Sequence record: MT533174.1
Direction: 5' to 3' (one strand)
Length of the DNA: 64,000 bases
Source of the DNA: Escherichia phage CJ20
Part shown: positions 22,662 through 39,475 of the stretch, one piece after another
Numbering within the stretch: the first letter of the stretch is position 1
Layout: every line of letters starts with the position of its first letter
Translations under genes and position numbers: made by a program
The notes under the pieces: generated by a model
What the model saw: only the letters and a program-made list of their open reading frames with translations
What the model was told of the DNA's origin: nothing
The model's database searches: none

Positions 22662-22735
22662 GGCCCTGTAGCTCAATTGGTTAGAGCATCCGGCTCATAA
22701 CTGGCAGGTTTCCGGTTCAAGTCCGGATGGGGCCA
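22662..22735 (+). tRNA. tRNA with CAT anticodon (Met or Ile2-type)
   Basis: Manual fold: D-arm GCTC/GAGC, anticodon loop CTCATAA, T-arm TCCGG-TTCAAGT-CCGGA, 7-bp acceptor stem with two G-U pairs; T4 encodes a CAU-anticodon tRNA-Ile. Confidence 0.7.
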
Positions 22736-22737
22736 CC

Positions 22738-22814
22738 CGGGGTGTAGCTTAATTGTATAGAGCAACGGTCTTCTAAACCGTAGGTTGTGGGTTAGAATCC
22801 CGCCACCCCGACCA
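22738..22814 (+). tRNA. tRNA-Arg (TCT anticodon)
   Basis: Manual fold: acceptor CGGGGTG/CACCCCG, anticodon stem ACGGT/ACCGT with loop CTTCTAA, T-arm GTGGG-TTAGAAT-CCCGC, encoded CCA; T4 also encodes tRNA-Arg(UCU). Confidence 0.8.
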
Positions 22815-38070: not shown

Positions 38071-38430
38071 ATGGTAAGAGTCATAACTTTAGCCATAGGG
38101 TTAGTATTTAGCACGGGAGGAATAGCTTCAGTACAGAGCGATGATAATAATAGCATCATAGAATATGCAACGAGGACGGCCAAAGATTATTGCGCATCAA
38201 GCAATGTGGATTGTGTAATCCAGTTCAGTGCCAAACTCACTGCTGCCTATAAAGACGGTCAAAATGATGTTGAACACACTCTTATGAAAAAGAGTATTTT
38301 ATCCAACAAATATGAAAAGAAACTATTTGAAATGGATTGTATTCTGTCGAGTGCCAAATATAAAGCGGCCTGTACCAGTATGGTTGACAGGTTAGTCGAT
38401 TCCTATAACAGAGGATTGAACTCTAAATGA
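38071..38430 (+). CDS. hypothetical secreted protein (T4 vs position)
   Basis: 119 aa; signal-peptide-like N-terminus; several Cys. Confidence 0.5.
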   Translation: MVRVITLAIGLVFSTGGIASVQSDDNNSIIEYATRTAKDYCASSNVDCVIQFSAKLTAAYKDGQNDVEHTLMKKSILSNKYEKKLFEMDCILSSAKYKAACTSMVDRLVDSYNRGLNSK

Positions 38431-38906
38431 TTGTTAACTATATTAAGGGCGATATAGTCGCCCTCTTTCTCGAAGGAAACATCATAGCTCATGGCTGTAA
38501 TTGTTTCCATACAATGGGTTCAGGTGTCGCTGGCCAACTGACAAAGGCTTACCCAAAAATTTTAGAAATGGATAAGACATCAACTGAATACGGTTCCCGA
38601 GAAAAACTCGGTGATATGTCTATCGTTTTTAAACATAAGCCAACTGGATTTGGTATGTGCTATAACCTTTATACCCAGTATGAACCGGGTCCAAATCTGG
38701 ATTATGGCGCTTTAGTAAATTGCATGATAGAATTAAATCTACAAGCAGAATCACTTTTGTTCAAGCCTGTGATTTATATTCCCAGGATTGGATGTGGTAT
38801 TGCAGGTGGTGATTGGGATAAGGTTTCCCGGTTAATTGATATGTTTACTCCTGATATTGATTTGGTGGTAGTTGATTATGAAAGCACATTATCCACATCC
38901 GTTTGA
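38427..38906 (+). CDS. putative macro-domain (ADP-ribose binding/processing) protein
   Basis: 159 aa; N-terminal IKGDIVAL...IIAHGCNCFHTMGSGVAGQL fits the macro-domain GDIT...AIVNAAN...GGGVxGAI pattern. Confidence 0.5.
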   Translation: MIVNYIKGDIVALFLEGNIIAHGCNCFHTMGSGVAGQLTKAYPKILEMDKTSTEYGSREKLGDMSIVFKHKPTGFGMCYNLYTQYEPGPNLDYGALVNCMIELNLQAESLLFKPVIYIPRIGCGIAGGDWDKVSRLIDMFTPDIDLVVVDYESTLSTSV

Positions 38907-39090
38907 CCCTAAAAACAAAGCTACAATTATTCGACACTGGTCCGAAACACGGGTAACCAAGTGTCCTATAAAAAGTCCTCACAATGTAGATAAGTGGTAT
39001 ATCGGCGAGTATGTTGAATATACTTTTATTGACAAAAACAAACGTAAACAGTATGTAGAAGAATACTGCTTAAAGGTACAATGGTTATGA
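38878..39090 (+). CDS. hypothetical protein
   Basis: 70 aa from the ATG at 38878. Confidence 0.45.
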   Translation: MKAHYPHPFDPKNKATIIRHWSETRVTKCPIKSPHNVDKWYIGEYVEYTFIDKNKRKQYVEEYCLKVQWL

Positions 39091-39293
39091 GCCAAGCCCG
39101 AATTCTTAAAACGGCCAAATGTGAAAAATGTGAATGGCCAGTAATCGCAGCTTTATGCAACGATGAAATGAATTGCGAATTTGATTACCGGTGGTACTGT
39201 TCTAATAAAGGATGTTCTAATCATAAGGGTGAAGGTTTTCATTCTGGCGATTGCGAACATCCTAAATTTGTGCGATATGGGGAACCGAAATGA
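39081..39293 (+). CDS. Cys-rich small protein (possible zinc binding)
   Basis: 70 aa with 9 Cys including C-x2-C pairs. Confidence 0.5.
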   Translation: MVMSQARILKTAKCEKCEWPVIAALCNDEMNCEFDYRWYCSNKGCSNHKGEGFHSGDCEHPKFVRYGEPK

Positions 39294-39475
39294 GTTTAAG
39301 CATTAGTCAGAAAAGTAGATTATTTGAGCTTATCCATGAGCTTTTGGATGAGCATACAGAAGCAAACGCTTTTTATGATGAATACGGTCCAATAGATGCC
39401 GAACATCAGGAAGAATTTGCCAATCGATTTGATGCGAAAGAAAACGAATTAATAGCTTATGTGAATACGCTTTAA
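39290..39475 (+). CDS. hypothetical protein
   Basis: 61-aa ORF. Confidence 0.45.
   Translation: MSLSISQKSRLFELIHELLDEHTEANAFYDEYGPIDAEHQEEFANRFDAKENELIAYVNTL

What the first reader, a model, noticed from the sequence alone, without database searches (positions are those of the whole stretch)
38427..38906. Candidate macro-domain protein in the tk-proximal early region
The N-terminus IKGDIVAL...IIAHGCNCFHTMGSGVAGQL follows the macro-domain signature (GDIT...AIVNAAN...GGGVxGAI). T4-like phages ADP-ribosylate host proteins, and some bacterial defences act through ADP-ribosylation, so a phage macro domain could reverse or read such marks.
Basis: inference. Interest (0 to 1): 0.5.

Follow-up and report, generated by a model that had tools for sequence, protein, structure and literature searches.

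The report
Phage macrodomain Tk.4, anti-DarT2 eraser

Summary
The ORF at 38427..38906 (+, 159 aa) exists as described. It passes the Pfam Macro model (33.2 bits against a cut-off of 22). The AlphaFold model is confident (pLDDT 94.4), and its best structural matches are BT1257, DarG, Poa1p and TARG1, all macrodomains of the ALC1-like class.

It is the ortholog of T4 tk.4: 60% identity over 155 residues with no gaps, in the same gene order regB-vs.1-vs-tk.4-tk.3-tk.2-tk. The window comes from a VR7/SP18-like (Gaprivervirus) phage.

A 2025 preprint found tk.4 as the only T4 transposon-screen hit on a DarTG2 host. A clean knockout made T4 sensitive, and the gene was named adfM. The likely function is therefore removal of ADP-ribose from thymidines that DarT2 places on phage single-stranded DNA.

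One refinement comes from this work. The family has an invariant Gln (Q84) where DarG and TARG1 have the catalytic Lys, as in the Streptomyces thymidine-ADPr hydrolase SCO6735. It scores only about 29 bits on DarG models. The PhiKZ protein also called AdfM scores about 135 bits and is Lys-type. Bacterial relatives are standalone and not next to DarT.

The gene is already known, so interest is low to moderate.

The parts
38427..38906 (+). tk.4 / adfM ortholog: 159-aa single-domain macrodomain protein (coordinates include the stop codon)
38411..38415 (+). GAGGA, a possible Shine-Dalgarno sequence 11 nt upstream of the ATG, inside the end of the vs gene
   Evidence: Read directly from the sequence. 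Inference only.
38427..38430 (+). ATGA overlap: the tk.4 start codon (38427-38429) overlaps the vs stop codon TGA (38428-38430), which suggests co-transcription and translational coupling with the upstream gene
   Evidence: Sequence. ORF ends. VR7 annotation shows the same 4-nt overlap of vs and tk.4.
38490..38504 (+). H22-G23-C24-N25-C26 motif. It corresponds to SCO6735 H24-V25-C26-N27. The Asn is the conserved catalytic-site Asn of active macrodomains: SCO6735 N27S and PhiKZ AdfM N23A both lose activity.
   Evidence: H22, G23, N25 and C26 are invariant in 94 family members and in 79-80 of 80 bacterial relatives (though this motif was one of the retrieval patterns). Alignment. Published mutants.
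38517..38525 (+). G31-S32-G33, the first glycine-rich ADP-ribose-binding loop (MGxG)
   Evidence: G33 is invariant and G31 at least 90% conserved. It aligns to the MGAG and WGKG loops of TARG1 and SCO6735.
38664..38678 (+). N80-L81-Y82-T83-Q84 motif. Q84 occupies the position of the catalytic Lys of TARG1 (K84) and DarG (K80), and of the essential Gln85 of SCO6735.
   Evidence: MAFFT and two hhalign runs agree on the equivalence. N80, Y82 and Q84 are invariant in 94 family members and in 80 of 80 bacterial relatives, and this motif was not used to retrieve them. SCO6735 Q85A is inactive.
38781..38816 (+). P119-R-I-G-C-G-I-A-G-G-D-W130, the phosphate-binding loop. It differs at two of twelve positions from SCO6735 PRIGCGLAGGTW. 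A126 occupies the position of TARG1 catalytic D125.
   Evidence: P119, G122 and G124 are invariant. A Gly to Glu change in this loop of SCO6735 (G128E) reduces its activity.
38878..38906 (+). 29-nt overlap between the end of tk.4 and the start of tk.3 (38878..39090, DUF7202), consistent with a tightly packed operon
   Evidence: Sequence. VR7 annotation. Pfam DUF7202 124.9 bits.

Best explanation
The ORF is the ortholog of phage T4 tk.4 (adfM) in a VR7/SP18-like T-even phage. It encodes a standalone macrodomain of the ALC1-like class. Its gene order and overlapping start and stop codons suggest it is co-expressed with the neighbouring regB-vs-tk genes. Its most likely job is to neutralise the bacterial DarTG2 defence. 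DarT2 attaches ADP-ribose to thymidine in single-stranded phage DNA and so blocks replication. The macrodomain would bind the ADP-ribose through its two glycine-rich loops (MGSG, and PRIGCGIAGGDW) and hydrolyse the ribose-thymine bond, releasing ADP-ribose and restoring the base. The catalytic centre is Gln-type (Q84, positioned with N25), as in Streptomyces SCO6735, not Lys-type as in DarG. The chemistry is therefore probably water-mediated and substrate-assisted rather than going through a lysine intermediate. Status of each step: macrodomain identity, clade, orthology, synteny and residue equivalences are shown here. The requirement of tk.4 for growth on DarTG2 hosts is shown in the literature for T4. 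Thymidine-ADPr hydrolysis is shown in the literature for the Gln-type SCO6735 and for the Lys-type PhiKZ AdfM. That this protein has the same activity and phenotype is inferred.
Against: No biochemical assay exists for any member of the Tk.4 family. The T4 paper infers the enzymatic mechanism and compares Tk.4 only with Mtb DarG. This protein is 40% different from T4 Tk.4 and has not been tested on DarTG2. The SCO6735 residues proposed to hold DNA are not conserved: K34 corresponds to S32, and K89 lies in a 5-residue loop segment absent here. DNA recognition must therefore differ if DNA is the substrate. ALC1, a non-catalytic binder, also has Gln at this position, so Gln alone does not prove catalysis. 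Catalytically dead SCO6735 still inhibits DarT by binding, so a non-enzymatic contribution cannot be excluded.
Confidence: 0.75

Rival explanations
1. It is an ADP-ribose-1''-phosphate phosphatase like yeast Poa1p. This is the source of the 'phosphatase' label in RefSeq and PHROG annotation. It would process a by-product of 2'-phosphotransferase reactions.
Against: The only phenotype known for the T4 ortholog is specific to DarTG2. From general knowledge, no source of Appr-1''-p is known in T-even infection, and weak Appr-1''-p phosphatase activity is a common side activity of macrodomains. BT1257, TARG1 and SCO6735 are closer to the family profile than Poa1p is.
Confidence: 0.05
2. It mainly erases or reads ADP-ribose on proteins or RNA. 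The marks could be the phage's own (Alt, ModA, ModB, including RNAylation) or those made by other ADP-ribosylating host defences. Its action on DarT2 marks would then be one of several activities.
For: SCO6735 and TARG1 also de-ADP-ribosylate proteins. T-even phages encode three ADP-ribosyltransferases (general knowledge). Bacterial relatives are standalone genes in housekeeping neighbourhoods with no DarT nearby, which suggests a broader cellular role for the clade.
Against: Alt and Mod enzymes make arginine-linked ADP-ribose, which macrodomains are not known to cleave (general knowledge). tk.4 was non-essential on plain K-12 and was the only hit on DarTG2. No data link it to any other defence.
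Confidence: 0.12
3. It protects mainly without catalysis, by binding and blocking DarT2 or by shielding ADP-ribosylated DNA.
For: Catalytically dead SCO6735 Q85A, DarG K80A and TARG1 K84A all inhibit DarT in vitro by interaction, and SCO6735 does so most strongly. Other phage anti-DarT factors (AdfA, AdfB) are thought to be binders.
Against: Active-site residues (N25, Q84, loop glycines) are strictly invariant across phage and bacterial members that share only 33-60% identity, which argues for selection on catalysis. The protein lacks the C-terminal DarT-binding domain of DarG: it is 159 aa and matches only positions 2-147 of the 338-position DarG model.
Confidence: 0.08

Closest known systems
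Phage T4 Tk.4 = AdfM (anti-DarT factor Macrodomain), bioRxiv 10.1101/2025.11.20.689424
   Same: Ortholog: 60% identity end to end with no gaps. Same position between vs and tk.3. Same PHROG 335. All family-invariant residues are shared.
   Different: 40% of residues differ. The phosphate-binding loop here is the family consensus GCGIAGGDW, whereas T4 has GAGIGKGNW. The anti-DarTG2 phenotype has been tested only for T4.
Streptomyces coelicolor SCO6735 (PDB 5e3b) and Bacteroides BT1257 (2afc/2fg1): standalone Gln-type ALC1-like macrodomains. SCO6735 is a thymidine-ADPr DNA hydrolase.
   Different: Only 26-28% identity. The loop after the Gln is 5 residues shorter here, matching TARG1 in length, and lacks SCO6735 K89. 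SCO6735 K34 corresponds to S32.
DarG antitoxin macrodomain (DarTG2; T. aquaticus 5m31, M. tuberculosis 5m3i)
   Different: DarG uses a catalytic Lys (K80) and this protein has Gln. There is no C-terminal DarT-binding domain and no adjacent darT. It scores 29 bits against a cut-off of 250 on NCBIfam DarG and 28 bits on PADLOC DarG.
PhiKZ gp104, also named AdfM (Cell Rep 2026, PMC13309987)
   Same: Phage-encoded single macrodomain that counters DarTG2. Removal of T-ADPr from DNA has been shown in vitro. The catalytic-site Asn is conserved.
   Different: A different lineage. It is Lys-type (FPTK) and scores 137.8 bits on the NCBIfam DarG model and 132.9 bits on the PADLOC one. BLASTP against the window protein gives only 23 bits. 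It is also imported into the phage nucleus.
Human TARG1/OARD1 (4j5r)
   Same: Best Foldseek match (E 1.7e-10). Same loop length after the catalytic position. PRIGCG loop. Also able to remove thymidine-ADPr from DNA (cited).
   Different: TARG1 has the catalytic dyad K84/D125, and this protein has Q84/A126.

Membership tests
Macro domain superfamily (Pfam PF01661) | Profile match above the curated gathering score | tested here: met
   33.2 bits against a cut-off of 22, E 5.6e-8, profile positions 2-117 of 118
Macro domain superfamily (Pfam PF01661) | Three-layer alpha/beta/alpha macro fold | tested here: met
Macro domain superfamily (Pfam PF01661) | Binds ADP-ribose | not testable with these tools
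   Both glycine-rich binding loops are conserved, but binding itself needs an experiment.
ALC1-like macrodomain class (TARG1, DarG, SCO6735, BT1257, Poa1p) | Closest structural and sequence relatives are members of this class, clearly separated from the MacroD, viral and PARG classes | tested here: met
T4 Tk.4/AdfM orthologous group | Full-length sequence similarity and conserved genomic position between vs and tk.3 | tested here: met
   60% identity over 155 aa with no gaps. Synteny. PHROG 335 at E 9e-70.
T4 Tk.4/AdfM orthologous group | Required for phage growth on DarTG2-expressing hosts | not testable with these tools
   Shown for T4 only.
DarG antitoxin (NCBIfam NF048014 equivalog) | Score above the equivalog cut-off | tested here: not met
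   29 bits against a cut-off of 250. PADLOC DarG gives 28.4 bits, whereas PhiKZ gp104 gets 132.9.
DarG antitoxin (NCBIfam NF048014 equivalog) | Catalytic lysine (K80) in the macrodomain | tested here: not met
   Q84 sits at that position by MAFFT and hhalign. The equivalence of K80, K84 and Q85 is from PMC9411070.
DarG antitoxin (NCBIfam NF048014 equivalog) | C-terminal DarT-binding domain and an adjacent darT toxin gene | tested here: not met
   The protein is 159 aa and matches only model positions 2-147 of 338. Its neighbours are vs and tk.3.
SCO6735-type Gln hydrolases of thymidine-ADPr | Essential Gln at the catalytic position, positioned by the conserved Asn, and Gly in the phosphate-binding loop | tested here: met
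   Q84, N25 and G124/G128 are conserved.
SCO6735-type Gln hydrolases of thymidine-ADPr | Extended mobile loop with DNA-contacting Lys89, plus Lys34 | tested here: not met
   The loop is 5 residues shorter, and K34 corresponds to S32.
SCO6735-type Gln hydrolases of thymidine-ADPr | Hydrolysis of ADP-ribose from thymidine in ssDNA | not testable with these tools
   Needs an in vitro assay.
PhiKZ-type AdfM (gp104) | Close sequence relationship and the Lys-type FPTK motif | tested here: not met
   BLASTP gives 23 bits. hhalign probability is 96%, which shows only superfamily-level homology. The window protein has LYTQ.

The most novel reading that the evidence does not exclude
The Tk.4-type AdfM is not a captured DarG antitoxin. 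It belongs to a separate clade of standalone Gln-type macrodomains whose bacterial members sit in housekeeping contexts. It may therefore be a broad ADP-ribose eraser, acting on thymidine-ADPr DNA and also on protein- or RNA-linked ADPr. That would let it protect T-even phages against ADP-ribosylating defences beyond DarTG2, using a lysine-independent, water-mediated mechanism. The clade placement is largely shown here. The probability given refers to the broad substrate range and the extra defence targets.
Probability: 0.25. Interest if true: 0.55.

Novelty: already known. Interest (0 to 1): 0.25.

Why it matters
ADP-ribosylation of phage DNA by DarT toxins is a widespread bacterial defence, and phage-encoded erasers help decide host range. 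This gene family occurs in 2768 of 50,697 phage records. They include T-even, Felix-O1-like, Vibrio, Acinetobacter, Aeromonas and Pseudomonas phages, some of which are candidates for therapy. Much annotation still calls the gene 'phosphatase' or 'hypothetical protein', and that could be updated. The small addition from this work is that two unrelated macrodomain lineages, Gln-type Tk.4 and Lys-type PhiKZ gp104, have each been named AdfM. The Tk.4 lineage resembles SCO6735 rather than DarG at the catalytic position, which matters for choosing mutants and for mechanistic claims.

Tried and rejected
1. DarG membership is rejected. Scores on the DarG models are low, the catalytic Lys is replaced by Gln, and there is no C-terminal domain or darT neighbour.

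2. I tested whether the bacterial relatives are DarT-linked antitoxins. Neighbour ORFs of 80 bacterial loci were clustered. The largest conserved neighbour cluster covered only 8 loci and consisted of lineage-specific housekeeping genes such as IleRS and RpoC. No toxin partner appeared.

3. Pairwise HMMER and hhalign against PhiKZ gp104 placed the Q84 region ambiguously. I did not rely on them. MAFFT with references and hhalign against TARG1 and SCO6735 agree with each other.

4. The consensus promoter and terminator scan of 35-41 kb gave counts close to shuffled expectation (23 against 18.0 ± 3.7, and 5 against 4.5 ± 2.0), so I assign no promoter.

5. The Poa1p structure paper is not in the library. 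The residue at the Q84-equivalent position of Poa1p was therefore not determined.

6. Rfam and tRNA scans found nothing in or near the gene.

Full report
**Observation**

The window holds an ATG-initiated ORF at exactly 38427..38906 on the + strand. Its ATG overlaps the stop codon of the upstream ORF (ATGA at 38427-38430). Its last 29 nt overlap the start of the next ORF. A GAGGA lies 11 nt upstream.

**Source genome and gene order**

- The 2.6 kb around the ORF is 93-96% identical to Gaprivervirus phages (VR7, VR26, SP18, P479) of the Tevenvirinae.
- The local order is regB (Pfam REGB_T4), vs.1, vs, this ORF, tk.3 (DUF7202), a 70-aa zinc-binding ORF, tk.2 (DUF7438), then thymidine kinase (Pfam TK, 196.6 bits).
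- In VR7 and SP18 the gene is named tk.4 and is annotated as 'hypothetical protein' or 'phosphatase'. In other phage records it is annotated 'macro domain' or 'Poa1p-like'.

**Is it a macrodomain?**

Yes.

- Pfam Macro (PF01661) matches at 33.2 bits, above the gathering score of 22, across almost the whole profile.
- PHROG 335 matches at E 9e-70.
- Direct sequence search of the PDB finds BT1257 (2e-10), yeast Poa1p (3e-9), SCO6735 (2e-7), M. tuberculosis DarG (1e-5) and human TARG1 (2e-3).
- An AlphaFold2 model built on a 94-sequence alignment is confident (pLDDT 94.4, pTM 0.89).
- Foldseek against the PDB returns TARG1 (E 1.7e-10, TM 0.72-0.82), BT1257, Poa1p and both DarG macrodomains first.

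**Orthology to T4 tk.4**

The window protein and T4 Tk.4 align over 155 residues at 60% identity with no gaps (E 1e-71). With the shared gene order, this establishes orthology.

**What the ortholog does**

- The HIDEN-SEQ preprint (bioRxiv 10.1101/2025.11.20.689424) infected a DarTG2-expressing host with a T4 transposon library. tk.4 was the single significant hit.
- A clean tk.4 knockout made T4 sensitive to DarTG2.
- The authors noted structural similarity to M. tuberculosis DarG and named the gene adfM. They inferred, but did not show, enzymatic removal of ADP-ribose from DNA.
- This fits earlier work in which T4 lacking adfA and adfN stayed resistant to DarTG2, so that a further factor was predicted (PMC11825919).

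**Mechanism and catalytic residues**

A 94-member family alignment shows invariant H22, G23, N25, C26, G33, A35, N80, Y82, Q84, P119, G122 and G124.

MAFFT with solved references, and two independent hhalign runs, agree on these points:

| Window residue or feature | Equivalent in relatives |
|---|---|
| Q84 | TARG1 K84, SCO6735 Q85 |
| A126 | TARG1 D125 |
| Loop after Q84 | Same length as TARG1; 5 residues shorter than SCO6735 |

PMC9411070 supplies the functional context:

- TARG1 K84, DarG K80 and SCO6735 Q85 are equivalent positions.
- SCO6735 cleaves thymidine-linked ADP-ribose on DNA.
- Q85A abolishes this activity, and N27S and G128E impair it.
- Catalysis is proposed to be water-mediated, with Gln positioning the distal ribose.

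The window protein keeps the counterparts of these residues: N25, Q84, and a PRIGCGIAGGDW loop that differs from SCO6735 PRIGCGLAGGTW at two of twelve positions. It does not keep SCO6735's proposed DNA-contacting K34 (S32 here) or K89 (in the missing loop segment). Details of DNA binding must therefore differ.

**Relation to DarG and to the other 'AdfM'**

| Protein | NCBIfam DarG (bits) | PADLOC DarG (bits) |
|---|---|---|
| Window protein | 29.0 | 28.4 |
| T4 Tk.4 | 30.3 | 36.0 |
| SCO6735 | 28.6 | not scanned |
| PhiKZ gp104 | 137.8 | 132.9 |

- PhiKZ gp104 was independently named AdfM (Cell Rep 2026, PMC13309987). It removes DarT2-made T-ADPr from an oligonucleotide in vitro, and its N23A mutant has reduced activity.
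- gp104 carries the Lys-type FPTK motif.
- Its relation to the window protein is only at superfamily level: BLASTP 23 bits, hhalign probability 96%.
- Two macrodomain lineages in phages therefore seem to have converged on the same defence. The Tk.4 lineage is not a DarG member by any of the defining features tested.

**Bacterial relatives**

- A scan of one genome per species found at least 493 loci encoding relatives. The best 80 share 33-43% identity with the query.
- They are standalone ORFs of about 150 aa.
- Clustering of all neighbouring ORFs found no conserved partner. The largest cluster covers 8 of 80 loci and consists of lineage-specific housekeeping genes.
- They keep K60, G62, N80, Y82 and Q84 in 77-80 of 80 sequences, and these positions were not used for retrieval.
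- The clade therefore looks like a standalone cellular macrodomain family that phages also carry, not a toxin-antitoxin module.

**Rival explanations**

- Appr-1''-p phosphatase. This rests on homology to Poa1p and on the annotation label. No relevant substrate is known in T-even infection.
- Eraser of protein or RNA ADP-ribose. This is possible as an extra activity, because SCO6735 and TARG1 act on proteins. However, macrodomains are not known to cleave the arginine-linked marks made by Alt and Mod enzymes.
- Non-catalytic inhibitor of DarT2. Dead SCO6735 does inhibit DarT in vitro. The strict invariance of active-site residues argues for catalysis.

**Verdict**

The gene is already known: it has a macrodomain or A1pp annotation in public records, and the function of its T4 ortholog has been published. 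Interest is therefore low to moderate. The Tk.4 family is Gln-type and SCO6735-like rather than DarG-like. It is also distinct from the PhiKZ protein that shares the name AdfM.

Noticed in passing
window 39081..39293 (+): A 70-aa Cys-rich ORF (Pfam PF23895 Phage_zn_bind, 95 bits) lies between tk.3 and tk.2. It is present in SP18, P479 and TH41, which cover the query 100%. It is absent from VR7 and VR26, which cover 92% in two pieces, and VR7 annotation goes straight from tk.3 to tk.2. This is a presence/absence polymorphism within the genus.
   Followed up: partly
window 39290..39475 (+): The tk.2-like ORF (DUF7438, 57.4 bits) also has a sub-threshold hit to PF09720 'Putative addiction module component' (16.9 bits, below GA 23.3). 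This is probably noise but is noted.
   Followed up: no
literature; PhiKZ gp104 versus T4 Tk.4: Name collision. 'AdfM' has been given independently to T4 Tk.4 (Gln-type, about 30 bits on DarG models) and to PhiKZ gp104 (Lys-type FPTK, about 135 bits on DarG models). The two are related only at superfamily level.
   Followed up: yes
loci L003-L082 (bacterial genomes): Standalone bacterial homologs (33-43% identity) occur in Ruegeria, Desulfobacter, Hyphomicrobiaceae, Verrucomicrobia and others. They keep the invariant NxYTQ motif and have no conserved neighbour or DarT gene. Their cellular role is unknown.
   Followed up: partly
window 22662..22814 (+): The window holds only two tRNA genes, adjacent to each other: tRNA-Met (cat) and tRNA-Arg (tct). 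ARAGORN and Rfam both find them.
   Followed up: no
T4 Tk.4 (L001 5923..6390, - strand) versus window 38781..38816: T4 Tk.4 departs from the family consensus in the phosphate-binding loop (GAGIGKGNW against consensus GCGIAGGDW, which the window protein has). A Lys replaces the otherwise at least 90% conserved G127. The significance is unknown.
   Followed up: no
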